From Deinococcales bacterium (lineage in GTDB: Bacteria > Deinococcota > Deinococci > Deinococcales > JAAFIG01), in contig JAYWGM010000075.1 of assembly GCA_043778225.1 (NCBI GenBank), positions 11,747 through 75,746 on the forward strand: 64,000 nt of DNA. Reading direction: 5' to 3'. Under the pieces are notes generated by a model. The model was not told the origin of the DNA. It did not search any database and worked only from the letters and a program-made list of their open reading frames with translations. Shown here in pieces: positions 29,277 through 40,960 of this stretch; the first letter of the stretch is position 1; each line of letters begins with the position of its first letter. The position numbers and the translations under genes were made by a program.

Positions 29277-29732
29277 ATGAAAAAATGGTTCTTAATCTTG
29301 GTTGCAGTATTGGGTTTCTCGGGCTTAGCTGGCGCACAAAAATTCTCGGTCGGTGGCGGTTTAACCAGTCAGTTTCAAAATGGTTTTGTACTGGGTTTTG
29401 GCATTAACTTAGGCGCAGAAGACTTGGTAAAATTCAGCAAAGACTTTGGACTTGATGCTCGAGTTGACCTCGAAGGTTCATTTGGCGCGGGTGCTTTTTT
29501 ATTTGGTTTGGGCGCAGGTGTATACGCTTCGTACCAAATTTCTGATATTGACATTTACTTTGGACCTCGAGTGATTGTGCTACTGTCCCCAGCTTCAGCT
29601 TTTGGCTTTGGGGCGTTGCTCGGTCTGCGTTATGACTTGTCAAATACGCTTGCACTGTACAGCGAAGTACGGTTTTTGTTCACACCAGCTTTTGATTACC
29701 AAGCTGCCCTTGGCGTGCGAATCCTGCTCTAA
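29277..29732 (+). CDS. Small outer-membrane beta-barrel-like protein
   Basis: Signal peptide MKKWFLILVAVLGFSGLAGAQ, an alternating Gly/aromatic beta-strand pattern and the aromatic-rich C-terminal strand FDYQAALGVRILL. AGGAGG SD. Confidence 0.7.
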   Translation: MKKWFLILVAVLGFSGLAGAQKFSVGGGLTSQFQNGFVLGFGINLGAEDLVKFSKDFGLDARVDLEGSFGAGAFLFGLGAGVYASYQISDIDIYFGPRVIVLLSPASAFGFGALLGLRYDLSNTLALYSEVRFLFTPAFDYQAALGVRILL

Positions 29733-29747
29733 AAACCTTCTCTTGCG

Positions 29748-29774
29748 AGGCTCGAGACCCCCTACTCGAGCCTC
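29748..29774 (+). terminator. Hairpin built from two CTCGAG sites (GAGGCTCGAG-acccccta-CTCGAGCCTC)
   Basis: Perfect 10-bp inverted repeat 16 nt after the stop at 29732. There is no T-run, so terminator function is uncertain. Confidence 0.4.
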
Positions 29775-30014
29775 CACACCAAACCTTAAAAGACCAAAAG
29801 CTCGAGCAATCAAGGACTCGAGTCAGGTGAAACATTTTCAAATTTGCACTCTCTCAAGCGTTACAGGGAAAACAAGTATGACCAAAGAACCTTTGCAAAC
29901 CTATGTTCGACCAGTCCTCGAGCCGCAACCAGCCTATGCACTGGTGACTGCTGGTTTTTCTTTTCCTGTTGGTTCAACTTCGGCACTTGAACCCTTGAAT
30001 GATGTGGAGAAAAA

Positions 30015-30734
30015 ATGAAACGTTTTTTACTATCCCTTCCTTGGCTGGCACTGACCTTCATGGCGTGTCAACAAACCACGCTGAACCAACCTAAACCAAT
30101 TGACCGCAATGGAAGCGCAATGCAGGCACAAGCCTTGATTGACTGGTTTCACAAGGATGCGCCCGAAAAATACCGTGCTTCAATCATGGGCGGAGTTCCT
30201 GAGGGTTGGCGTACCGGTACGAACACCTCACAATCTGGGGCTGAGTGGGCTAAAGTTTACCGTTCGTTGGATGTTATCAGTCCGTGGGCTGTGGGAAGAT
30301 TTGCTGATAATGCTGGCGCAGATCGGTTCAACCAAAATTACATCATTCCAGATTTGCTCGAGACCAAGCGATTAGGGATTGAATATATGCCCGTGGTTTT
30401 TCCTGGTTTTTCTTGGAACAATCTTAAAAATAACGGACGAGTCAATCAAATTCCCCGCAATGGAGGTCGTTTTTATTGGAATCAAGTTTATAATGCGATC
30501 ACTTCTGGCGCGACGATGATGAAAACAGCCATGTTTGACGAAGTAGACGAAGGAACAGCGATTTTCAAAATCTCTGAAGGGAAAGCATCCGCACCTGTCG
30601 AGTTTCCAATGGTCAATCTCGATGTAGACGGAGAAAAATTACCCTCCGACTGGTATTTGCGTGTGACCGGAGCAGCTACCCAAGTGCTGAAAAAAGAAAG
30701 AAAATTGACGAAGGATTTACCGTTACGTCCTTAG
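30015..30734 (+). CDS. Hypothetical lipoprotein (possibly glycoside-hydrolase-like)
   Basis: Lipobox LALTFMAC. The only function hint is my weak recollection of similar C-terminal regions in glycosidase-like proteins (VFPGFSWNN...DEVDEGTAIFK). Confidence 0.6.
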   Translation: MKRFLLSLPWLALTFMACQQTTLNQPKPIDRNGSAMQAQALIDWFHKDAPEKYRASIMGGVPEGWRTGTNTSQSGAEWAKVYRSLDVISPWAVGRFADNAGADRFNQNYIIPDLLETKRLGIEYMPVVFPGFSWNNLKNNGRVNQIPRNGGRFYWNQVYNAITSGATMMKTAMFDEVDEGTAIFKISEGKASAPVEFPMVNLDVDGEKLPSDWYLRVTGAATQVLKKERKLTKDLPLRP

Positions 30735-30768
30735 CAAATTAAGTACCAATCAATGGTACAAAATGGAT

Positions 30769-31365
30769 TTAACTGAGCATTGCCACCAAAATCCCTAGAA
30801 TTTCAGGTAGTTCCTCCAAGTCATAAGACCGATTATCCACGGTTAAAACCCGATGCTCGAGGTGTAAGAACTGCCAAGAATTTCCAATCGTCACAGCCCC
30901 ATAAACTCGAGTTTGAGGCTTGCCCTCGCGTTCATTAAAAATTTGGGTGGCGACCATTTCGGCTGTGGCTTGGGCGATACCTTGCTTAAAATTCTCGTTC
31001 TTGGCTTCTACGACTATCAAAACAGGCGCTTCTAAATATAACTGCTGAGTTGACTTAGAAAAAAGAAAATCACAAATCCCAATTAAACCTTGTTCAGAAT
31101 CCACGTTAAATTCCACGCCACTAAACACCGAAACTTGGTCATGCACCAGTCCACGAACCTCGAGCAGAATCGGTGCAATAATAAATTCGCTTCTGGCTTT
31201 TTCCGTATTTTGTTTGACTGCTACCGAAGCACCACGTTCAAGAATATAAGTTAGCGCGGGTGTTGGTTGGATTGGCGTAAAAGCAACTCCCAAAGGCTGG
31301 TTATCAATTAATTGCAAATCAAATTTTTTAATCACGGTTGGTAAAGTAAAATTACTGTATGCCAT
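30769..31365 (-). CDS. PD-(D/E)XK nuclease-fold protein (HsdR-N-like), paralogue 1
   Basis: CDFLF...VVEAKNENF matches a D...(D/E)xK core. About 70% identical by eye to 57641..58237. Confidence 0.7.
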   Translation of the reverse strand: MAYSNFTLPTVIKKFDLQLIDNQPLGVAFTPIQPTPALTYILERGASVAVKQNTEKARSEFIIAPILLEVRGLVHDQVSVFSGVEFNVDSEQGLIGICDFLFSKSTQQLYLEAPVLIVVEAKNENFKQGIAQATAEMVATQIFNEREGKPQTRVYGAVTIGNSWQFLHLEHRVLTVDNRSYDLEELPEILGILVAMLS

Positions 31366-31397
31366 TTGTTTAGTGTAGTCGTTTCGTTCCTGAGTTT

Positions 31398-32342
31398 CTA
31401 CGAGGAAAATAAGTATTTTCTTAAAGCAACTATTTGTGAGTTTCGGAAATCCCGAACCACTTGAATTTGCGGATCAAAAACATCAAAACCATGAAATGCA
31501 CCTCCGACCACTACAAGTTCAGTCTCGATGCTACTTGCTTCTAACCGCTTTGCATACGTTAAATCTTCGTCATAAAAAACATCCAGAGACCCCACGCCAA
31601 TCCAAACGGGAGGCAAACCAGTGAGGTCTTCTCGGCGGGCAGGTACGGCATAAGGAGGTGTGGTTTTTGCGCCACACGCTGTTCCTAAGTAGCTCTCCCA
31701 ACCAAATTGATTACTTTTTTGCGTCCAAGTCACATTTTGGCTGTCATCTATTTCGGTACGCAGTACAGTTCGATCATCAAGCATCGGGTAGATAAGTAAT
31801 TGAAGTGCCACTTTGAATTCTTGTCGGTCATAAATAAGTTGTACCAGAGCCGCAGCCAGTCCACCACCTGCGCTCGCCCCGCCAATGGCAATTCGGTTTA
31901 GATCTATGCCCAGTTCTCGAGCTTGCGAAACAACCCATTTTAAGGCAGCATAACAGTCGTCTAATCCAATTGGAAAAGGATACTTTGGTGCGTACCGGTA
32001 ATCCACTGAAACCACTGTGATGCCTAATTCTTGAACATACTGCGAACAACAACCATCATCTTGTTCTGGCTTGCCGACCACATAACCACCGCCGTGCATC
32101 CAAATCAGCACAGGAGTTGGTGTTGTTGCCATTTTTGGTTTGTAGACCCGTACACGAATCTTTGCTTGACCTGATTCGATAAAAATATTTTCGATGAAAA
32201 CACTTTGCGGAGTTTTGGCTTTAGGCATGATGGACATAATCAAACGCATCAGCCAAAGGTTTTTTTTATTAAAATCAAATTTTGGAGTTCTGTTTGCAAT
32301 TTGTAAAAGCTGAGGATGAATTTTAGAAATTTCTTTTTTCAT
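31398..32342 (-). CDS. Alpha/beta hydrolase, HSL-type esterase/lipase
   Basis: HGGGYV oxyanion motif, GASAGG nucleophile elbow and a C-terminal HGF motif. Confidence 0.85.
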   Translation of the reverse strand: MKKEISKIHPQLLQIANRTPKFDFNKKNLWLMRLIMSIMPKAKTPQSVFIENIFIESGQAKIRVRVYKPKMATTPTPVLIWMHGGGYVVGKPEQDDGCCSQYVQELGITVVSVDYRYAPKYPFPIGLDDCYAALKWVVSQARELGIDLNRIAIGGASAGGGLAAALVQLIYDRQEFKVALQLLIYPMLDDRTVLRTEIDDSQNVTWTQKSNQFGWESYLGTACGAKTTPPYAVPARREDLTGLPPVWIGVGSLDVFYDEDLTYAKRLEASSIETELVVVGGAFHGFDVFDPQIQVVRDFRNSQIVALRKYLFSS

Positions 32343-33712: not shown

Positions 33713-34242
33713 AACCCATTTTTTTAATCATGGGAACACCTGCCGCAGGCAAAAGCACCATTGCTAAAGCCTTGACGCAGCGCTTTGAGAAGGGGCTGCA
33801 TATTCCCGTGGATGACCTGCGCCACATGGTCGTCTCGGGCTTGTCAGACATGGGTTTTGAAGTTCCACCCGCCACGCTCGAACAGGTGCGCTTGGCTCGA
33901 GAAGCCGCTTCGAGCATGGCAAGGATTTACTCAGATAACGAATTTGCAGTTGCTATAGATGATTTTTGGTACGGTGATAAACCCGACGAAGTGTACGCGC
34001 AAAAAATCGGGCAACGTGTGACCCGAGTTTTACTGCTCCCAAACCTCGAGACAACAGTGCAGCGCTTGTACTCGAGAAACCCAGAAGAGGGCAGTTTTAA
34101 GCAGATTCTCGAGCAAGCGATTCGGCAATTGCATGTCCAGATTGCAGTGCATCCAAAGATTAATTGGCTGGTGATTGACTCGAGCGGTTTGAGTGTTGAA
34201 CAGACTGTAGATAAAATCCTTGCGAGAACGGAAAGAACTTGA
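33709..34242 (+). CDS. P-loop kinase/AAA-family protein (phosphotransferase-like)
   Basis: ORF 33646..34242. The ATG at 33709 overlaps the P450 stop (ATGA). MKPIFLIMGTPAAGKSTIAKAL Walker A. Confidence 0.75.
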   Translation: MKPIFLIMGTPAAGKSTIAKALTQRFEKGLHIPVDDLRHMVVSGLSDMGFEVPPATLEQVRLAREAASSMARIYSDNEFAVAIDDFWYGDKPDEVYAQKIGQRVTRVLLLPNLETTVQRLYSRNPEEGSFKQILEQAIRQLHVQIAVHPKINWLVIDSSGLSVEQTVDKILARTERT

Positions 34243-34311
34243 AGACAAGGCTTTTGATGACGTTATACAAAGAGCCCAATCCCTAGAAGCGTTCCGTCCC
34301 CGTCTTGAGTC

Positions 34312-34794
34312 CTAGAGGTGTTCTTGCAACCGATCTTGCACCCGCCAGAGTAGTTGAATCAGTTTCTCTTGCTCTTTTGGACTCAGCACCTCCATCCATA
34401 TTTTTTCTGCGCGGTGAATCGGTACGCGCACTTCGTCCGCTACCCTGCGCCCCTCATCGGTGATTTCAACAAGGAGCATTCGGCGGTCCGACGGGTGCGG
34501 TTTGCGCTGGACGTAACCCCGGCGTTCAAGTGAGTCGAGCAATCCGGTGATGGTCGCTCGGGTCACGACCAGTCTATCGCTAATCTCGTGCGGCGAGAGG
34601 GGACTGTTCGCATTTGCCAATGCGATCAGTGCCAGCCCCGTGGCGATACTGAGGTCGAACGGACGCTTAATTGTCTCGATGTGACTGAGCAAAAGATCAT
34701 TGGTGCGGACGATGTTCAAGACGCACTCTGTGGCTTTTCTGCTACTCTCGGGCCAGCGTTGCTCGAATCCTTCGGATAGTGTTATGTGTTGCAT
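34312..34794 (-). CDS. MarR family transcriptional regulator
   Basis: wHTH region LSPHEISDRLVVTRATITGLLDSLERRGYVQRKPHPSDRR. Confidence 0.9.
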   Translation of the reverse strand: MQHITLSEGFEQRWPESSRKATECVLNIVRTNDLLLSHIETIKRPFDLSIATGLALIALANANSPLSPHEISDRLVVTRATITGLLDSLERRGYVQRKPHPSDRRMLLVEITDEGRRVADEVRVPIHRAEKIWMEVLSPKEQEKLIQLLWRVQDRLQEHL

Positions 34795-34857
34795 GGTGTG
34801 CTATTCTCCTTCTTTTTACTATTGGCACAGATAATCAGCACCAAGATAGTTAGGGAC

Positions 34858-34886
34858 TTGACAAATTTAGTTTGACCCCTTATTAT
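34858..34886 (+). promoter_or_regulatory. Sigma-70-type promoter TTGACA-17-TATTAT, divergent from marR
   Basis: Exact hexamers and 17-nt spacer read directly. Confidence 0.55.
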
Positions 34887-35014
34887 CACCTTACAAGCAA
34901 TCAGGTCGGGTGTAAAGATACATTCGTAATCACGCGACACACATGCAAGGCCTCTGCTGAGAAACGACCTATCTGGCTGGTTAAAACTTGGCGCTCTGAA
35001 TACTCGAAGTGTCT

Positions 35015-35129
35015 AAGAAAATACCTCACGCAATCATTTTCGCATTTACCAAGATTTTGACATCAAAACCCCAACATCCCCGAACGCCCTTGAAGTCGAA
35101 AGGAGCGAAGTGTCAAGTATTGTCTGTCC
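35015..35129 (+). repeat. Leader module copy 1 (49-nt block identical to 36757-36805; second block 35078-35129 about 88% identical to 36863-36913)
   Basis: Direct comparison of the two loci. Confidence 0.9.
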
Positions 35130-35192
35130 TAGACCATTGTTTGCATCCATGATACCCACAACCCCCAATGCCGAGCTGGGCTGGAAGTCCAC

Positions 35193-35225
35193 GCGACGCT
35201 CACGCAACGCACCCTTTGGCATACT
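35193..35225 (+). promoter_or_regulatory. Candidate promoter C: GCGACGCT-cac-GCAACGCA-N8-CATACT
   Basis: Same spacing as A and B, but the second repeat is degenerate. It lies 114 nt upstream of 35339. Confidence 0.4.
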
Positions 35226-35338
35226 GGCATCGTTCACCTATTGAATACCAGCCGTCAGTGTGGCTCTTGTGTTCGCAGCAAAGGAGAATACGTATTTTGG
35301 CACTCGACCCCAAGCCCTCTAGCCCAAAGGAGAAAAGC

Positions 35339-35623
35339 ATGACTACCCTATTTGTAAGACACCAAGTGAGCAATTTTGATAACTGGAAAAAGATCTACGA
35401 CGAGCTTGGAGCTACTCGCGAAAAGATGGGGGTCAGCGCAGCCAGCGTCCACCGTGATGGTACCGACCCCAATACAGTAATGGTTACCCACCGGTTTCCC
35501 AACATCGGTGCAGCCACCGCTTTTGCCAACTCCGAGGAACTCAAAGCTGGCATGGGACGGGCTGGGGTTACCAGCCAACCGGAGATGTGGTTTACCGACG
35601 ACGTTGAACACACCGCGCACTAG
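35339..35623 (+). CDS. Small alpha/beta-barrel (ABM/Dabb-like) protein, paralogue 1
   Basis: ORF 35168..35623 trimmed to MTTLFVRHQV with an AAAGGAG SD. Paralogous to 37028..37297. Confidence 0.7.
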   Translation: MTTLFVRHQVSNFDNWKKIYDELGATREKMGVSAASVHRDGTDPNTVMVTHRFPNIGAATAFANSEELKAGMGRAGVTSQPEMWFTDDVEHTAH

Positions 35624-35855
35624 ACCAAAGCTAGAACACTCGCTCGAGACCACCTGAATTTTGCAAGCAACCATCGAGCCAGTCTGGGATATTCTTTCCG
35701 ACCCCTACACTGGCTCACTTGATTCCCAACGTTTTGTAAGGTGCGCTCGAGCACCGCACTACCTACCTATTTTGGAGTTTTATACCGAAGGTACGGTATT
35801 ACTAATTAGGCTGGTGTCAGTAAACTCACATTAGAAATAACCAAGGTGTCTGAAA

Positions 35856-36377
35856 ATGCTAACTATTTCTCAAGTCAACTCAGAAGCCGAAATTGTAGCT
35901 GTTCAAGAACTAATGCGCGAATACGCAACGTGGGCTTTCACACTCATCCCGGGCAGTAATGAAGCGCCTACTTGGGAGGGATTCGACGAGGAGTTGGCGA
36001 CATTACCCGGTATTTATGCACCACCAGGGCGTTTACTACTAGCCATGCAAGATGGAAAGCCAGCAGGGTGTGTATGTCTCAAAGCACATGATGCCAATAC
36101 CAGTGAACTCAAGCGGCTCTACGTGCGTCCCATCTTTCGGGGACAAAACATTGGTCAGCAATTAGTCAAAATTCTTGTTAAAGAGGCACGTCAATCCAGA
36201 TATCAACGGATCGTGCTGGATAGCCACGCTTCGATGAAAAAAGCACATGCAATCTATTTGGAAGTTGGATTTAGATTGGTGAGCGCCCCGAATGATTTTC
36301 CAGAGGAACTCAAACCAGTTGTGGTGTTCATGGAGTGTGATCTATCTGATGCAACCAATGAAAATGAAGTAGATTGA
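35856..36377 (+). CDS. GNAT family N-acetyltransferase
   Basis: RLYVRPIFRGQNIGQQLV acetyl-CoA binding motif (R/Q-x-x-G-x-G/A). Confidence 0.88.
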   Translation: MLTISQVNSEAEIVAVQELMREYATWAFTLIPGSNEAPTWEGFDEELATLPGIYAPPGRLLLAMQDGKPAGCVCLKAHDANTSELKRLYVRPIFRGQNIGQQLVKILVKEARQSRYQRIVLDSHASMKKAHAIYLEVGFRLVSAPNDFPEELKPVVVFMECDLSDATNENEVD

Positions 36378-36756
36378 AAGTGTTACAGACTTTATTCGCA
36401 CTGCGCCCAACTCAGCGTGTAGCCGACCCGTCCAGTTGCATCCAGAGAAGGCTTTTTTTGCACAATAGATAACGCAAAACCAAAAATATTTGAACCACTA
36501 TGTCAAAACATGATTTGCCACTGAGACTGTTGGTAATGTCCAAAAAAACCTAACAAAGCAGGGATCTATTCAAATGATTAGATGATCTTCCGTTTCATAC
36601 ACAACCCTCTTGGAATTTACATAAGCAATATCAGTTTTTTTCTGTTTACGACACTGATTTTCTGGTTCCTCGAGAAATCAATCAAATCAATTCACAACTT
36701 GCTTAAAAATACACTCTTCCCAAAGTTGCTTGGCAGTACACAATTGCAAAAAACTC

Positions 36757-36913
36757 AAGAAAATACCTCACGCAATCATTTTCGCATTTACCAAGATTTT
36801 GACATGCTTAACTCCTGACAAGAAATTGCTTACATTCAGCTTCAAAATCGAAAACCCAAAGTCCCAGAACGCCCCTGAAGTCGAAAGAAGCGACGTGTCA
36901 AATACTGTCTGCC
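36757..36913 (+). repeat. Leader module copy 2
   Basis: See 35015..35129. Here the two blocks are separated by a 57-nt insert. Confidence 0.9.
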
Positions 36914-36947
36914 CGCGCCCTAAGCCCTCTCGCAAAAGAGAAATTTT

Positions 36948-37016
36948 ATGGTTCAGATCATCGTTCACCACACCCTCACCGATTGCGCCAGATTCAAGCC
37001 CAACTCGAGCAAATAA
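36948..37016 (+). pseudogene. 22-codon remnant (or uORF) of a third ABM-like paralogue (MVQIIVHHTLTDCARFKPNSSK*)
   Basis: Its N-terminus aligns with MTTLFVRHQVSNFDNWK and MTQLLVKHAVRDFNLWK. The upstream sequence taagccctctcgcaaaagagaaa matches the RBS region of 35339. Confidence 0.5.
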
Positions 37017-37027
37017 AGGAGCAACAC

Positions 37028-37297
37028 ATGACACAACTTTTAGTCAAACATGCCGTCAGAGACTTCAACCTCTGGAAAACCGTCTACGACTCGCTGGCGG
37101 ACCTGCGAGACCAGCATGGCTTTGTTAGTTCCCGCATCTTGCGAGACGCGGATAACCCCAATCAGGTCGTGGTAATCGAGGAATACCGCACGCTCGAGGG
37201 AGCCAAAAACTTCGCACAATCTACAGCGTTGCGTGTGGCAATGGGTCATGGGGGTGTGATCAGTACGCCCGACATTACCTTTCTCGAGTCCGTTTGA
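37028..37297 (+). CDS. Small alpha/beta-barrel (ABM/Dabb-like) protein, paralogue 2
   Basis: ORF 36983..37297 trimmed to MTQLLVKHAV with an AAAGGAG SD. Confidence 0.7.
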   Translation: MTQLLVKHAVRDFNLWKTVYDSLADLRDQHGFVSSRILRDADNPNQVVVIEEYRTLEGAKNFAQSTALRVAMGHGGVISTPDITFLESV

Positions 37298-37363
37298 ATC
37301 AACACTGAACCAGACCTCGCTCGAAACCAATTTCAACTGCAAACCACACCACAGGAGGAAATC

Positions 37364-37945
37364 ATGAATCGTCGTCAAATGCTCAAATTGGGACTGTCCA
37401 GCGCCGCCACAAGCATGATCGTACCCGCTTTGCCCGGATTACTCTCGAGCGCCAGCGCCCAAGCCCTCGTGCCTGCCTTCGGCACCCGTCGCTCCATTGA
37501 AAACAGCGTTTATTACAACGGAAACGTCTTCAGTTTCCTCGCCGACTCGAGAGCCACTAGCGGAAGTTACGCGATGTATGAGGTAACTATCCGTCAAGGT
37601 CTCGAGCCGCCACCGCACACGCACACCCGCGAGGACGAAATCTTCTTGATCCTAGAAGGCGAGGCAACTTTTAAAAGCGGCAATGTCACCGACGAAGGCA
37701 AACCTGGCGACCACATCTTCCAACCGCGCAACGAATTGCACTCGTTCAAAATCAAAACCCCAACCCTACACGCCATCATCATGGTCACACCAGGCGGACT
37801 CGAGAAGGCGTTCCAAGCGCGGGGCAAACCCGTGACCTCGCTCGAGTTGCCACCAGTACCCGCACCGCCCACGCCCGAACAGATCGCAGCGACTTTCAAG
37901 TTCTTCGCGGACAACTACGGCGTTATCTACGCACCGAGACAGTAA
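37364..37945 (+). CDS. Cupin-domain protein with Tat signal
   Basis: MNRRQMLKLGLSSAATS...ASAQA. The cupin motifs are PPHTHTREDEIFLILEG and the later H in ELHSF. Confidence 0.8.
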   Translation: MNRRQMLKLGLSSAATSMIVPALPGLLSSASAQALVPAFGTRRSIENSVYYNGNVFSFLADSRATSGSYAMYEVTIRQGLEPPPHTHTREDEIFLILEGEATFKSGNVTDEGKPGDHIFQPRNELHSFKIKTPTLHAIIMVTPGGLEKAFQARGKPVTSLELPPVPAPPTPEQIAATFKFFADNYGVIYAPRQ

Positions 37946-37990
37946 GCGTCAGAGCGCATTGTGCCACCACCGCTTAAAAAACACTCGGTC

Positions 37991-38331
37991 GTGGCGAAGC
38001 TGACCCCGATTGCGAAACAAAACGGACTGGAGATTTTAGATCCTCCCGGCGCATCGAAGGCTTAAAGCTCGAGAATGTCCAAATTCGGGTACTCGAGACG
38101 TTGATTCGCCCCAATGAAGAAACAGCCGTGCATACCCACATTTGGTCTGGGGTTTTGTACATCATCTCTTGGAGCGATTTTATTCGTTATGACGAGCATC
38201 GCAATGTCATGATGGATTCGAGCCGCATGACAAGTGCGCCACTTGAGGGAAGGGAACGGCAATTCTGGCTACACCTCTGCCGCCGCATTCACTGCGAAAT
38301 GTTGGAACTAAAAACATTCATGTCGTTCTGA
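37991..38331 (+). pseudogene. Possible frameshifted cupin-like remnant
   Basis: The ORF 38101..38331 (TTG start) reading frame stays open upstream to 37978 without an ATG. A second frame starting with GTG at 37991 ends at 38063. ETAVHTHIW resembles a cupin metal motif. Confidence 0.3.
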
Positions 38332-38417
38332 CTGAATTCAAAACCTGACTTCGCCTCGAGTCTGAAAGGACAGCCCTGTTTGGTATATACTCTCGGTAAT
38401 ACCATCAGGAGGTCTTT

Positions 38418-38657
38418 ATGATTGCCACTGCCAAGCTATTTAAGAATGGACGAAGCCAAGCCGTCCGACTGCCAAAAGAATTTCGTTTTGAAGGTACAGA
38501 AGTGCTGATTGAAAAAGTTGGGAATACAATTGTTCTTACCCCAAAAGAAAATCGTTGGGACAGAATGTTGGCGGCACTGGAAATGTTTGACGGTGCAGAT
38601 ATTGAACGCAACCAACCATCTGCTCAAGAACGCGATTGGGGAGATTTGTGGGAATAG
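38418..38657 (+). CDS. vapB: VapB-type antitoxin (AbrB/SpoVT fold)
   Basis: AKLFKNGRSQAVRLPKEFRF is the canonical SpoVT/AbrB-like VapB N-terminus. GGAGG SD. Confidence 0.9.
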   Translation: MIATAKLFKNGRSQAVRLPKEFRFEGTEVLIEKVGNTIVLTPKENRWDRMLAALEMFDGADIERNQPSAQERDWGDLWE

Positions 38658-38662
38658 ATTTT

Positions 38663-39055
38663 ATGCTTGATACAAACATTTGTATTTACATAATAAAGAA
38701 TCACCCACCAAAAGTCAGACAAATACTCGAGCAGAAAAAGGATTTTGAGATTGTCCTTTCAACTGCTGTGGTTTTTGAACTCCAATATGGTATCGAAAAA
38801 AGTCTGGCTCGAGAAAAGAACCAAATTGCGTTGGAGGAATTTTTGATAGGTTTTGAAATTGCTACTTTTGATAGAGCCGCCGCAACTCGAGCCGCAAGTA
38901 TTCGGGCTGGACTTGAAAGAAAAGGAACGCCAATTGGTGCGTATGATTACCTGATTGCGGCTCATGCCCTTGAGTTAGGCGCAACTTTAGTCACCAATAA
39001 CCTCAAAGAATTTAGGCGAGTGCAAGGCTTACACCTCGAGAATTGGTTTGCTTAG
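38663..39055 (+). CDS. vapC: VapC PIN-domain toxin
   Basis: MLDTNICIYII...ELQYG...YDYLIAAHA...TNN contains the PIN acidic residues. The start is 6 nt after the vapB stop. Confidence 0.9.
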   Translation: MLDTNICIYIIKNHPPKVRQILEQKKDFEIVLSTAVVFELQYGIEKSLAREKNQIALEEFLIGFEIATFDRAAATRAASIRAGLERKGTPIGAYDYLIAAHALELGATLVTNNLKEFRRVQGLHLENWFA

Positions 39056-39365: not shown

Positions 39366-40418
39366 TCACTCGAGGTCATCACGCATTTTTTCCATTTTCT
39401 CGAGGGCTTCGCGTCTGGTCTCCATGTCCATCTTGGCATAAATAGCCGAAGTATTGACACTGGCATGACCGAGTAAATCTGCAACAACGTGTAAATCCTT
39501 GGTGGCTCGGTACAAGTGCGTTCCAGCAGTTCGCCGCAGCGTATGCAGTCCCCACATCTCACTTGGTAGCCCAGCGCCCACGTAATAACCCTTGGCTATA
39601 AATCTTGCGCCATGCGTGGTTAAACGCCGTCCGTGACGCTGATTCCTCGAGATACTGACAATCAGTGCTTTTTCGATTTCAGGAATTTCACCGCGCAATT
39701 CAAGACCACCCCGCACCTCGAGCCAACGCTTCAATAAAAGAATCAATTCGTTAGCAATCGGTATAATGCGTTTTTTGCCGCCTTTACCGCTTTGGACTGT
39801 GATTCGTTTAAGACTAATTTCAACGTCGGTCACATCTAAACTAATGATTTCTTTGGCTCGCAACCCACCCGAGCCACCAAGCGCAATTAAAAGTCCATCT
39901 CGAGTACGACGCGGGTCGTCCACATTGTACTTCTCGAGTGGTGCATTAACAATTTCACGGTACAGGGCAGGGGAGAGCGCCGACTTTTTCAAATGGGCTG
40001 GGGTGGGGTCTCGAGGGGCTTTGACCTCGGCGGCAGGATTGACTGTTGTGGCTTTTGCCCAAATTAAAGCGCGATACAAACAACGAACACCATTTAAGTA
40101 CGTGATGATGCTCCCAGCTTTCATGCCCTCAGCTTGCAAAGTCACCAACCAAGTTTCCATATCATCCGCCTCGAGCCGTGTGACCTCGAGCCGATTAGAA
40201 GCTCGGCTACAAAACTCGAGAAAGCGCTTGACCGACGCAGCATAGAGGAGACGAGTATCGTTAGAAGTTAAGGCTTTACGCGCACTTTTTAGGGTTAAGT
40301 AATGGTTTAGTAACTCGAGCAGGGTAGCCAAGTCTTGTTCGTGTGCGGCGCGGACAGCTTCGCGTTTACGGTTTTCAGCAGATTGGAATTTACTGGAAAG
40401 AACTAGCTCGAGACTCAT
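39366..40418 (-). CDS. Tyrosine recombinase/integrase (XerC/D-like)
   Basis: SAM-like N-domain, then RAKEI...HTLRRTAGTHLY...LLGHASVNTSAIY (R..HxxR..Y catalytic set). Confidence 0.9.
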   Translation of the reverse strand: MSLELVLSSKFQSAENRKREAVRAAHEQDLATLLELLNHYLTLKSARKALTSNDTRLLYAASVKRFLEFCSRASNRLEVTRLEADDMETWLVTLQAEGMKAGSIITYLNGVRCLYRALIWAKATTVNPAAEVKAPRDPTPAHLKKSALSPALYREIVNAPLEKYNVDDPRRTRDGLLIALGGSGGLRAKEIISLDVTDVEISLKRITVQSGKGGKKRIIPIANELILLLKRWLEVRGGLELRGEIPEIEKALIVSISRNQRHGRRLTTHGARFIAKGYYVGAGLPSEMWGLHTLRRTAGTHLYRATKDLHVVADLLGHASVNTSAIYAKMDMETRREALEKMEKMRDDLE

Positions 40419-40960
40419 GTTTCTATACCGATTTGTTCTTTGAATAAATCAAATAAATCACCAAGCTGGTCAGGAAATCCCCAACCCATATCTGAGGTTG
40501 ACTTAACAATTTTTTGAAGTTGAGCCATGTACACCCGTGGTGTTGGATGTTTTGCAATTTGTTTTAAGACTTCTTCAAAAACAGTTTCAATACTAATGTA
40601 AAATTGCTCGTCAATATCACCATATGTTGCGGTACACCGAATTCCCATTTCTACAAAGTGCAACTGAATTGCTATGGCTTCTTGTATTGGAGCAACTTTG
40701 ATATATTGTCGCATTGCTTTACGAGCCGCACCTGTTTTACAACTTGGAAAGCCCCGTGGTGGGTCAAAGGCTTTTTCGATTTCTTTCATCACAGGCGCTT
40801 CTAAAGCCTCAAGGCTGGCTTGTTTATCCACCACACCCATGAGAAAGGATTTATTGGGAGTGGATAAATCATAGAATTGTTTGATAAGCTCGAGTAAATC
40901 GGTACTATCAAAGTTTTGCAGTTCTTTTTTAATGGCTGTCCAAGTTGGTTTTGTAGGCAT
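40415..40960 (-). CDS. Hypothetical protein co-transcribed with the integrase
   Basis: 181-aa ORF. Its stop overlaps the integrase start by 4 bp. I recognised no motif. Confidence 0.6.
   Translation of the reverse strand: MPTKPTWTAIKKELQNFDSTDLLELIKQFYDLSTPNKSFLMGVVDKQASLEALEAPVMKEIEKAFDPPRGFPSCKTGAARKAMRQYIKVAPIQEAIAIQLHFVEMGIRCTATYGDIDEQFYISIETVFEEVLKQIAKHPTPRVYMAQLQKIVKSTSDMGWGFPDQLGDLFDLFKEQIGIET

What the first reader, a model, noticed from the sequence alone, without database searches (positions are those of the whole stretch)
34189..36667. CTCGAG-free islands mark the marR / ABM-like / GNAT segment as compositionally foreign
The window averages about one site per 150-200 bp. Against that background I found none between 34189 and 35641 (1.45 kb: marR, the long leader and the first ABM-like gene). 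I also found none between 35750 and 36667 (0.9 kb: the GNAT gene plus an AT-rich tail).

The neighbouring accessory genes are also poor in sites:
- lipoprotein 30015..30734: 1 site
- esterase 31398..32342: 1 site
- hypothetical 40415..40960: 2 sites, both at the gene ends

If the palindrome accumulates with residence time, as proposed for HIP1, its local density is an internal clock for horizontal acquisition. By contrast the tyrosine recombinase gene has about 13 sites per kb, which suggests an old resident.

Caveat: gaps of 600-880 bp also occur in core genes (radA 3' end / PIN-TRAM 5' end, yciE-like, korB). Only the 1.45-kb gap is clearly exceptional.
Basis: partly seen in the sequence, partly recalled or inferred. 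Interest (0 to 1): 0.55.

Follow-up and report, generated by a model that had tools for sequence, protein, structure and literature searches.

The report
Imported genes lacking the genome's CTCGAG signature
This freshwater Deinococcales genome is peppered with the palindrome CTCGAG, and the one stretch that truly lacks it is a small strain-specific insertion of imported genes, so a missing motif does flag foreign DNA here, but motif density cannot be used as a clock.

Summary
CTCGAG occurs 361 times in 64 kb (about 8 expected). The two longest site-free gaps are 34179-35643 (1464 bp) and 35746-36669 (923 bp).

Gap length alone is weak evidence. Sites in genes sit mostly at Leu-Glu codon pairs, and these three genes offer only 5 such chances. 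A null that respects this gives a gap this long in 32% of simulations. After the same correction, however, 34.5-37.0 kb is the only significantly depleted stretch (3 sites against 13.9 expected; scan-corrected p about 0.003).

The stretch lies in a 4.1-kb block (about 34245-38370) that two sister genomes lack at this position. The block is a mosaic:
- marR-ABM1: no sites and the most atypical codon usage in the window.
- GNAT: no sites, and about 86% DNA identity to copies in two unrelated genomes with no CTCGAG excess, so a clear import.
- ABM2-cupin: site-rich, with sites at the same codons in higher-GC CTCGAG-rich contigs, so it arrived pre-loaded or is older.

Absence of the motif therefore marks DNA from outside the CTCGAG-rich lineage. 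Presence does not show long residence. The same idea was published for HIP1 in cyanobacteria. What I could not find in the literature is this motif, this lineage, and its effect on proteins (Leu-Glu at 2.3 times expectation).

The parts
34185..35642 (.). First CTCGAG-free gap (between the sites at 34179 and 35643). It covers marR, the 544-bp leader and ABM1.
   Evidence: The opportunity model expects 7.2 sites here and 0 are seen.
35752..36668 (.). Second CTCGAG-free gap (between the sites at 35746 and 36669). It covers the GNAT gene and the start of the A+T-rich spacer.
   Evidence: Expected 3.75 sites, observed 0.
34245..38370 (.). Strain-specific 4.1-kb block. L006 has about 75 bp of unrelated sequence in its place. 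The block is 49% non-coding and holds the three longest intergenic spacers of the window.
   Evidence: tblastn synteny, ORFs of L006, breakpoint alignment, spacer list.
34312..34794 (-). MarR-family regulator. It has 0 of 3 possible CTCGAG positions filled, the most atypical codon usage in the window, and GC3 of 0.63.
   Evidence: Pfam MarR_2 at 5e-13.. Nearest homologue is 72% identical, on L084.
34795..35338 (.). Divergent leader between marR and ABM1, with no site in 544 bp. Positions 34843-34895 are 85% identical to the same place on L084 and are probably the promoter or operator.
35015..35129 (+). Copy 1 of a local repeat upstream of ABM1.
   Evidence: 49 nt at 100% identity plus 64-68 nt at 84% identity to 36757-36914. 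It is absent from all other loci and has no stable fold.
35339..35623 (+). ABM-like small protein 1 (94 aa), with 0 of 1 possible positions filled.
   Evidence: Weak Pfam ABM hit. 64% identical to the ABM gene next to marR on L084.
35806..36430 (+). GNAT module (coding sequence 35856-36377). This discrete unit of about 625 bp is shared with unrelated genomes and has no CTCGAG.
   Evidence: 86.3% DNA identity over 635 bp to L124 and 85.4% over 533 bp to L123, with unrelated flanks. Those contigs have CTCGAG at or below expectation.
36757..36914 (+). Copy 2 of the local repeat, upstream of ABM2.
37028..37297 (+). ABM-like small protein 2 (89 aa). Both of its Leu-Glu pairs are coded CTCGAG. GC3 is 0.62.
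   Evidence: Pfam ABM at 7e-7..
37364..37945 (+). Cupin_2 protein. It has 5 CTCGAG sites, GC3 of 0.67 and atypical codon usage. It is absent from the sister loci.
   Evidence: Homologues at 72-78% lie on CTCGAG-rich contigs of 55-64% G+C, and 4, 2 and 1 of the five sites are at the same codons there.
38418..39055 (+). MazE-type antitoxin gene plus PIN-domain toxin gene. The pair is conserved in L006 (82% and 73%) and marks the right edge of the insertion.
39366..40418 (-). Xer-like tyrosine recombinase with 12 sites (11.4 per kb). It is an old resident.
   Evidence: 85-90% identical and next to namZ in L004-L007, with sites shared. It scores below the XerC, XerD and integron-integrase cut-offs.
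40415..40960 (-). A+T-rich hypothetical gene (G+C 0.39, 1 of 5 positions filled). It is absent between the recombinase and namZ in L005, L006 and L007.
   Evidence: There are no family hits.
29277..32342 (.). Second flexible block: beta-barrel-like ORF, lipoprotein, hypothetical gene and esterase. It is missing between the BTAD/TPR gene and the P450 gene in L005 and L006. 7 of 14 possible positions are filled.
   Evidence: The esterase is present on L007 at 73% identity and is also site-poor there.

Best explanation
The window is chromosomal DNA of an uncultured freshwater Deinococcales bacterium. Its lineage carries CTCGAG as a highly iterated palindrome: one site per 177 bp, about 41-fold over expectation, in all three reading frames and in spacers.

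Shown here:
- Between orthologues, site differences include single-base changes (CTTGAG, CTCGAA or CTCGGG against CTCGAG). Some are silent and some change the protein.
- Existing sites are kept about twice as well as other hexamers.
- The pressure is strong enough to make Leu-Glu the most over-represented dipeptide in the encoded proteins.

Against that background the CTCGAG-free stretch is the part of a 4.1-kb strain-specific insertion (about 34245-38370) that has not been through this process. The insertion lies in a flexible zone beside a conserved Xer-like recombinase. In sister genomes that zone holds a Tn3 transposase and a filamentous-phage-like element.

The insertion is a mosaic of three parts:
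- The GNAT module was imported from outside the CTCGAG-rich lineage (shown).
- marR-ABM1 most likely also came from outside, or is a module that moves too often to acquire sites (inferred).
- ABM2-cupin came from, or has long lived in, CTCGAG-rich relatives with higher G+C and carried its sites with it (shown for the cupin).

Motif absence therefore works as a tag for DNA that is not native to the lineage. Motif density is not a measure of residence time.

What drives the enrichment could not be determined from this window. Candidates are repair biased by a methyltransferase, or selection of the motif as an uptake or self-recognition signal.
For: Enrichment and its nature:
- 361 sites against 8.3 expected.
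- The motif is exactly the hexamer, with no flank preference, and one-off variants are near expectation.
- 192 of 299 Leu-Glu pairs are coded CTCGAG.
- Leu-Glu observed/expected is 2.28, against 0.84 for Glu-Leu. NamZ has 12 Leu-Glu pairs, against a mean of 2.0 in 75 distant homologues.

Lineage trait:
- Sister Deinococcales loci L004-L007 have observed/expected of 32-45.
- 63% of sites are conserved against L006, compared with 28.6% of other hexamer windows.
- Site differences between orthologues involve both silent and amino-acid changes.

Depletion of this stretch:
- It is the only significantly depleted stretch after correcting for coding opportunities.
- 0 of 5 coding opportunities are filled (p = 0.012).
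- Its 1136 bp of non-coding DNA hold 2 sites against 8.9 expected (p = 0.007).
- Leu-Glu observed/expected is 0.51 in these three proteins, against 2.3 elsewhere (p = 0.006).
- The ratio of exact to one-off sites is 0.13, against 1.5 for the window.

Accessory status:
- The block is absent at this junction in L005 and L006.
- The marR/CPT junction is reproduced in independent assemblies.

GNAT import:
- 85-86% DNA identity, confined to the gene plus roughly 35-55 bp of flank, in two contigs of different G+C (0.59 and 0.47) with no CTCGAG excess.

Cupin pre-loaded:
-.

Generality:
- Shared genes fill 200 of 305 possible positions. Strictly flexible genes fill 46 of 125 (p = 6e-8).
- In each of the four sister loci the largest gap lies in a gene not shared with the other loci, or in L007's case shared only with the window (the esterase, 73%). 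One is a 1601-bp gap inside a phage-like insertion on L004.
Against: - The marR-ABM1 pair has its closest known relative (72% and 64%) in another CTCGAG-rich contig, L084. There too it has no sites at 5 possible positions, while its neighbours have them. This could mean the module resists the motif for functional reasons rather than being young.
- Only two sister genomes cover the left junction, so loss in those lineages cannot be excluded.
- No target-site duplication, attachment site or mobility gene bounds the block.
- G+C of the stretch is ordinary.
- The non-coding expectation rests on only 6.1 kb of spacer DNA.
- Everything rests on 64 kb plus about 56 kb of relatives, not whole genomes.
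Confidence: 0.65

Rival explanations
1. Chance plus protein constraints. The three genes happen to encode almost no Leu-Glu or other compatible peptides, and the long spacers happen to lack the motif. Nothing about origin is implied.
For: There are only 5 coding opportunities in 1290 bp of genes, against about 10 per kb on average. With proteins held fixed, a gap of at least 1464 bp occurs somewhere in 32% of simulations. Core genes such as korB reach 0.9 sites per kb.
Against: - The opportunity-corrected scan gives p of about 0.003, and no other stretch comes close.
- The scarcity of opportunities is itself a signal: Leu-Glu observed/expected is 0.51 here against 2.3 genome-wide.
- The block is absent in relatives.
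- There is independent evidence that the GNAT gene was transferred.
Confidence: 0.1
2. Local selection against the motif. marR, its operator region and ABM1 avoid CTCGAG because a site would disturb regulation or expression. The module may be old in the lineage and simply lost from L005 and L006.
For: The orthologous marR-ABM pair on CTCGAG-rich L084 is also site-free at 5 opportunities, while neighbouring genes there fill 7 of 12. For HIP1, scarcity in some native genes is attributed to selection or codon preference (PMC3025956, PMC5861425).
Against: - The marR-ABM spacer on L084 does carry 3 sites, so the region is not intrinsically refractory.
- This does not explain the GNAT gap.
- marR codon usage is the most atypical in the window, and not in the direction of the local norm.
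Confidence: 0.15
3. Assembly artefact. The site-free stretch is DNA of another organism joined in by the metagenome assembler.
For: The window comes from a metagenome contig.
Against: - The exact MarR protein lies on five contigs of 50-200 kb.
- Two short contigs from other sequencing runs show the same marR, CPT and P450 junction.
- The block also contains CTCGAG-rich genes and is flanked on both sides by syntenic Deinococcales genes.
Confidence: 0.03
4. Integron-type cassette array. The same-strand small genes (ABM1, GNAT, ABM2, cupin, mazE-PIN) are gene cassettes captured by the adjacent tyrosine recombinase. That would explain both the mosaic and the foreign GNAT.
For: - In L123 and L124, GNAT homology starts at GTTGAGC and GTTGGGC, which fit the cassette core GTTRRRY (the consensus is from my own knowledge). 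A GCCCAAC follows the stop codon in the window and in L124.
- L123 is a run of small same-strand genes.
- A repeat precedes both ABM genes.
Against: - The recombinase scores 68 bits against the integron-integrase cut-off of 265 and looks Xer-like.
- It converges on the genes instead of diverging from them.
- Neither the repeat nor the GNAT downstream region folds into an attC-like hairpin (z-scores near 0).
- The window's left core is ATTAGGC, not GTTRRRY.
Confidence: 0.07

Closest known systems
HIP1 (GCGATCGC) of cyanobacteria, and the use of its scarcity to flag recently acquired genes (Delaye et al. 2011, PMC3025956; Elhai et al. 2012, PMC3497702)
   Same: - A single palindrome is tens of times over-represented, dispersed in genes and spacers, and not part of a mobile repeat.
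- It is conserved between relatives beyond background, as Xu et al. 2018 (PMC5861425) showed for HIP1. Here the figures are 63% against 29%.
- Genes with too few copies plus odd codon usage were read as xenologs in PCC 7942.
   Different: - The motif is a hexamer, CTCGAG, not an octamer built around GATC.
- The lineage is Deinococcales, not cyanobacteria.
- The density is several-fold higher: 5.6 per kb, against 7402 copies in the 2.7-Mb PCC 7942 genome (PMC3025956), about 2.7 per kb.
- The coding imprint is mainly one dipeptide (Leu-Glu), which is enriched 2.3-fold.
- No cognate methyltransferase was seen, though only 64 kb was available.
Exceptional hexamer and pentamer HIPs in single cyanobacteria (GGCGCC in Calothrix PCC 7103, GCsGC in Cyanothece PCC 7822, rCCGGy in Oscillatoria PCC 10802; Elhai 2015, PMC4390886)
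   Same: A short palindrome that matches a restriction or methylation site is strongly over-represented in one lineage.
   Different: Those cases are tied to identified methyltransferases and are sporadic in single strains. Here the trait spans several species and a range of 46-64% G+C, and the enzyme is unknown.
DNA uptake sequences of Neisseria and Pasteurellaceae, and the recent proposal that HIP1 acts as an uptake signal (bioRxiv 10.64898/2026.06.24.733823)
   Same: A lineage-wide over-represented short motif that imported DNA from outside the lineage lacks. DNA exchanged within the lineage carries it, as the cupin does here.
   Different: Uptake sequences are 9-12 nt, non-palindromic and roughly one per kb (from my own knowledge). 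No competence link was tested here.
Amelioration of horizontally acquired DNA (Lawrence and Ochman model; from my own knowledge)
   Same: Imported DNA starts with the donor's signature and drifts toward the recipient's.
   Different: The signature here is one specific hexamer and one dipeptide rather than base composition. G+C gives no signal for this stretch.

Membership tests
Highly iterated palindrome (HIP) phenomenon | One palindromic oligomer far above compositional expectation | tested here: met
   361 sites against 8.3 expected. CTCGAG is the top hexamer at 41-fold, and the next are only its overlapping shifts.
Highly iterated palindrome (HIP) phenomenon | Dispersed as a bare motif in coding and non-coding DNA, not as part of a longer repeat | tested here: met
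   Flanking positions are near background. Sites occur in all three frames and in spacers at 6.7 per kb.
Highly iterated palindrome (HIP) phenomenon | Sites conserved between related genomes more than control oligomers | tested here: met
   29 of 46 sites (63%) against 1601 of 5607 (28.6%) other hexamer windows, window against L006.
Highly iterated palindrome (HIP) phenomenon | Cognate (orphan) DNA methyltransferase for the motif or its core | not testable with these tools
   No DNA methyltransferase or restriction gene is present in the 64-kb window. The rest of the genome was not available.
HIP1 proper | The sequence GCGATCGC in a cyanobacterial genome | tested here: not met
   The motif is different, and the relatives are Deinococcales metagenome-assembled genomes.
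Horizontally acquired genomic islet | Absent from the syntenic position in close relatives | tested here: met
   L005 and L006 lack 34245-38370 between the CPT-like gene and the downstream genes. Only two genomes cover the junction.
Horizontally acquired genomic islet | Atypical composition by a measure independent of the motif | tested here: inconclusive
   With the motif masked, codon usage gives marR z = -2.95, cupin -2.19, ABM2 -1.71 and GNAT -1.2. G+C of the stretch is ordinary.
Horizontally acquired genomic islet | Nearest homologues in unrelated genomes | tested here: met
   Met for the GNAT gene only: 86% DNA identity to contigs without the motif and with different G+C. For marR and the cupin, the nearest homologues are in CTCGAG-rich contigs.
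Horizontally acquired genomic islet | Mobility signatures at the borders (direct repeats, attachment site, integrase belonging to the island) | tested here: not met
   No duplication at the breakpoints. The nearby recombinase is conserved in all relatives regardless of content.
Integron or cassette array | Integron integrase (IntI) adjacent to and divergent from the cassettes | tested here: not met
   TIGR02249 scores 68 bits against a cut-off of 265. The best match is XerC-like at 139 bits, below its cut-off of 335. The orientation is convergent.
Integron or cassette array | attC recombination sites (imperfect hairpins) after each cassette | tested here: not met
   DNA folds of the spacers and of the repeat are no better than shuffles. 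No attC model was available.

The most novel reading that the evidence does not exclude
CTCGAG in this freshwater Deinococcales lineage is a second, independently evolved highly iterated palindrome system outside cyanobacteria. It is denser than HIP1, spans species from 46% to 64% G+C, and is strong enough to have rewritten proteins, with Leu-Glu at twice its expected frequency. Its presence or absence sorts imported DNA into two classes: from inside the lineage (cupin) and from outside it (GNAT). That behaviour is what a self-recognition or uptake signal would produce.
Probability: 0.4. Interest if true: 0.75.

Novelty: new member of a known kind. Interest (0 to 1): 0.45.

Why it matters
The island itself is a small, ordinary insertion of accessory genes. 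Its value is as a worked example with three lessons:
- A hyper-abundant palindrome can flag imports that G+C misses.
- The test must be corrected for what the encoded protein allows. Here that means counting how many Leu-Glu and similar positions are actually filled.
- The flag reports the donor lineage, not the age of the insertion.

The background phenomenon matters more. What HIP1 is for remains unsettled, and it has been studied almost entirely in cyanobacteria. An unrelated lineage with its own palindrome would give an independent case. One could ask whether a methyltransferase, a repair bias or DNA uptake travels with such motifs. It also shows how far a DNA-level pressure can reshape protein sequences.

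Tried and rejected
- **Raw gap-length statistics.** Rejected as the test, because the opportunity-aware null gives p = 0.32.
- **Integron cassette array.** Considered because of GTTRRRY-like edges around the GNAT module and a repeat before both ABM genes. Rejected on the integrase score, the orientation and the lack of attC-like folds.
- **The repeat 35015-35129 / 36757-36914 as a structured RNA or mobile element.** There is no Rfam hit, no stable fold and no other copy in the window or any fetched locus. It remains unexplained.
- **Scan of JGI metagenome contigs with MarR.** No relative above 53% identity, so it was uninformative.
- **GNAT against plasmids.** The best match is 55% identity, so there is no evidence of plasmid carriage.
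- **Small ORFs in the long spacers.** No Pfam hits, so no recognisable pseudogene remnants.
- **Early conversion of the GNAT copy towards CTCGAG.** None seen: 2 one-off sites in the window's copy against 4 in the foreign copies.
- **hyp181 against the gene at the same place on L004.** Unrelated.
- **Literature on CTCGAG over-representation.** Nothing found.
- **Methyltransferase or restriction gene in the window.** None found.


Full report
**1. The observation.**
CTCGAG occurs 361 times in the 64-kb window, against 8.3 +/- 3.1 in dinucleotide-preserving shuffles. The mean spacing is 177 bp.
- Sites at 34179 and 35643, a gap of 1464 bp.
- Sites at 35746 and 36669, a gap of 923 bp.

The next longest gaps are 887, 882 and 860 bp. 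The counts given for the lipoprotein, the esterase, the hypothetical gene at 40415-40960 and the recombinase are right to within one site.

**2. What the motif is.**
- It is exactly the hexamer. Flanking positions are near background, one-off variants are near expectation, and no other hexamer comes close.
- It sits in all three reading frames and in spacers.
- 192 of 299 Leu-Glu dipeptides are coded CTC-GAG. 76 of 126 (Ser/Pro/Thr/Ala)-Arg-(Val/Ala/Asp/Glu/Gly) tripeptides use NCT-CGA-GNN. 58 of 155 X-Ser-(Ser/Arg) tripeptides use NNC-TCG-AGN.
- Non-coding DNA carries 41 sites in 6.1 kb.
- The pressure reaches the proteins. Leu-Glu is the most over-represented dipeptide (299 against 131 expected, ratio 2.28), while Glu-Leu is at 0.84. 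NamZ has 12 Leu-Glu pairs, against a mean of 2.0 in 75 distant homologues.

**3. Whose genome.**
- The window is part of a 97.5-kb metagenome contig.
- It carries housekeeping genes: radA, hisS, aspS, korAB and an IrrE-like peptidase.
- The nearest genomes are uncultured Deinococcales assemblies with NamZ 82-85% identical.
- Their loci (L004-L007, G+C about 0.46) show the same enrichment, with observed/expected of 32-45.
- Contigs L084 (G+C 0.49) and L125-L127 (G+C 0.55-0.64) also show it, at 12-27-fold.
- A plasmid of cultured Deinococcus sp. KNUC1210 has 1 site in 50 kb against 22.5 expected.
- Against L006, 63% of the window's sites are conserved, compared with 28.6% of other hexamer windows in the same alignments.
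- Site differences between orthologues include silent changes and amino-acid replacements, for example Leu-Glu-Gly against Val-Glu-Gly in NamZ.

**4. Is the gap more than chance?**
- A plain exponential model expects 0.1 gaps of this size. It ignores the fact that coding sites need a compatible peptide.
- marR, ABM1 and GNAT offer only 5 such positions.
- I held the proteins fixed and filled each position with its phase-specific probability, with spacers at their own rate. A gap of at least 1464 bp then appears in 32% of simulations, mostly in korB. Gap length alone is therefore not evidence.
- Measured as observed against expected sites, 34501-37000 is the most depleted 2.5-kb stretch: 3 observed, 13.9 expected, p = 5e-4. 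About 0.3% of simulations reach that value anywhere in the window, and the runner-up has p >= 0.04.
- The components are 0 of 5 coding positions filled (p = 0.012) and 2 sites in 1136 bp of spacer against 8.9 expected (p = 0.007).
- Two further signals do not depend on that model. Leu-Glu observed/expected is 0.51 in these three proteins against 2.3 elsewhere (p = 0.006). The ratio of exact to one-off sites is 0.13, against 1.5 for the window.

**5. What the segment is.**
- Synteny with L005 and L006 runs BTAD/TPR, P450, CPT-like kinase, then different content, then Xer-like recombinase, namZ and the peptide-binding protein.
- marR, ABM1, GNAT, ABM2 and the cupin are missing from both.
- Against L006 the break is at the CPT stop codon (about 34245) and about 45 bp before mazE (about 38370). 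I saw no target duplication.
- The block is 49% non-coding, against 9.5% for the window. It holds the window's three longest spacers.
- The same flexible zone holds a split Tn3 transposase in L005, a two-component system and a YHYH protein in L006, and an HNH, Zot-like and Rep_trans set in L004 that looks like a filamentous prophage.
- The recombinase is 85-90% identical in all four loci. It scores below the XerC, XerD and integron-integrase cut-offs.

**6. The block is a mosaic.**

*(a) GNAT.*
- More than a hundred homologue clusters lie at 65-88% identity.
- The DNA is 86.3% identical over 635 bp to L124 (G+C 0.59) and 85.4% over 533 bp to L123 (G+C 0.47).
- Homology is confined to the gene plus roughly 35-55 bp of flank, and the neighbours are unrelated.
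- Neither contig has a CTCGAG excess.
- This is a clear transfer between unrelated genomes. The divergence is comparable to that between the window and its sister species (75-85% DNA identity).

*(b) marR-ABM1.*
- The nearest relative is on L084 (72% and 64%), with the same divergent arrangement.
- L084 is CTCGAG-rich, yet marR and ABM have no sites at 5 possible positions there, while the spacer and the neighbours do.
- marR has the most atypical codon usage in the window, z = -2.95, with GC3 of 0.63 against a mean of 0.475.
- Its origin outside the lineage is likely but not shown.

*(c) ABM2-cupin.*
- These genes are equally absent from the sister loci and atypical (GC3 0.62 and 0.67; codon z -1.7 and -2.2).
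- They are site-rich (2 of 2 and 3 of 4 Leu-Glu pairs filled).
- Cupin homologues at 72-78% lie on CTCGAG-rich contigs of 55-64% G+C.
- Four, two and one of the window's five sites are at the same codons there. The sites were inherited, not accumulated at this locus.

**7. Generality.**
- Across the window and the four sister loci, genes shared between genomes fill 200 of 305 possible positions. Unshared ORFs fill 146 of 348 (p = 2e-9).
- Genes strictly inside the flexible zones fill 46 of 125 (p = 6e-8). The unshared class includes some genes that merely lie beyond the sampled range, and a few doubtful ORFs.
- In each sister locus the largest gap lies in a gene not shared with the other loci, or in L007's case shared only with the window (the esterase, 73%). 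One is a 1601-bp gap in the L004 phage-like insertion.

**8. Verdict on the interpretation.**
- Supported: absence of the motif flags DNA that is not native to the CTCGAG-rich lineage, and the recombinase is an old resident.
- Not supported: density as a clock.
- Density depends first on the protein. Core korB has 0.9 sites per kb with one opportunity.
- Density depends second on the donor. The cupin arrived loaded.
- The marR-ABM1 pair stays empty in two CTCGAG-rich genomes.
- The stretch is not foreign by G+C.

**9. Relation to what is known.**
- Using scarcity of a hyper-abundant palindrome plus codon usage to find xenologs was done for HIP1 in Synechococcus elongatus PCC 7942, with the same caveat about native genes that lack the motif (PMC3025956). 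Its effect on oligomer-based transfer detection was analysed in PMC3497702.
- Conservation of HIP1 beyond background is in PMC5861425.
- Hexamer HIPs and a methyltransferase and mismatch-repair ratchet model are in PMC4390886.
- An uptake-signal proposal for HIP1 is in bioRxiv 10.64898/2026.06.24.733823.
- I found no paper reporting CTCGAG over-representation in any lineage. That search covers only the held open-access library.
- No methyltransferase gene is in the window, so the driver is open.

**10. Scores.**
- The island is a new example of a known kind of marker, in a new lineage with a new motif. Interest is moderate.
- The background phenomenon deserves its own follow-up.

Noticed in passing
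whole window (61 ORFs): Leu-Glu is the most over-represented dipeptide in the encoded proteins (299 against 131 expected, ratio 2.28), while Glu-Leu is at 0.84. NamZ has 12 Leu-Glu pairs, against about 2 in 75 distant homologues. The DNA motif appears to have reshaped protein sequences.
   Followed up: partly
window 35015-35129 and 36757-36914: A two-copy repeat sits upstream of each ABM gene: 49 nt are 100% identical and the next 64-68 nt are 84% identical, with about 43 extra bases between the two parts in the second copy. It has no Rfam hit, no stable fold and no copy in any other locus. It may be a shared promoter or operator, or a recent conversion tract.
   Followed up: partly
L004:1359-9032: In one sister genome, 8.6 kb lies between the Xer-like recombinase and namZ. 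It encodes an HNH endonuclease, a Zot/pI-like morphogenesis protein and a Rep_trans rolling-circle initiator, a gene set that looks like an integrated filamentous phage. It contains 1601-bp and 991-bp CTCGAG-free gaps, but its Rep gene is site-saturated (8 of 10).
   Followed up: partly
L005:3341-6116: A Tn3-family transposase is split into two ORFs (DUF4158 plus the DDE domain) in the same flexible zone of another sister genome. Its CTCGAG filling is low (9 of 25).
   Followed up: no
L128 (Deinococcus sp. KNUC1210 plasmid NZ_CP092191.1, 1-50000): CTCGAG is strongly avoided: 1 site against 22.5 expected. Within one order the same hexamer therefore ranges from near-absent to about 40-fold enriched. 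This rests on a single replicon.
   Followed up: no
window 35806-36430; L123:4199-4731; L124:1987-2621: The shared GNAT module begins at GTTGAGC and GTTGGGC in the two foreign contigs (ATTAGGC in the window). It is followed by GCCCAAC in the window and in L124. These resemble integron cassette core sites. L123 is a run of small same-strand genes. No attC-like hairpin was found.
   Followed up: partly
window 34243-38417: The block is 49% non-coding, against 9.5% for the window. It contains the window's three longest intergenic regions (544, 650 and 472 bp). The small ORFs in them have no Pfam hits.
   Followed up: partly
window 34843-34895: A 53-bp stretch next to the marR start is 85% identical to the same place on L084, although the rest of the leader is unrelated. 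It is probably the marR/ABM1 promoter and operator.
   Followed up: no
window 40415-40960: This hypothetical gene is very A+T-rich (G+C 0.39, GC3 0.29). Its end overlaps the start of the recombinase gene, and it is absent from three sister loci. It has no hit in Pfam, NCBIfam or PHROGs.
   Followed up: partly
window 37364-37945: The cupin starts with a twin-arginine-like signal (MNRRQMLKLGLSSAATS...). Its homologues on L125-L127 sit among SnoaL-like and ABM genes, which suggests an exported small-molecule-modifying set.
   Followed up: no
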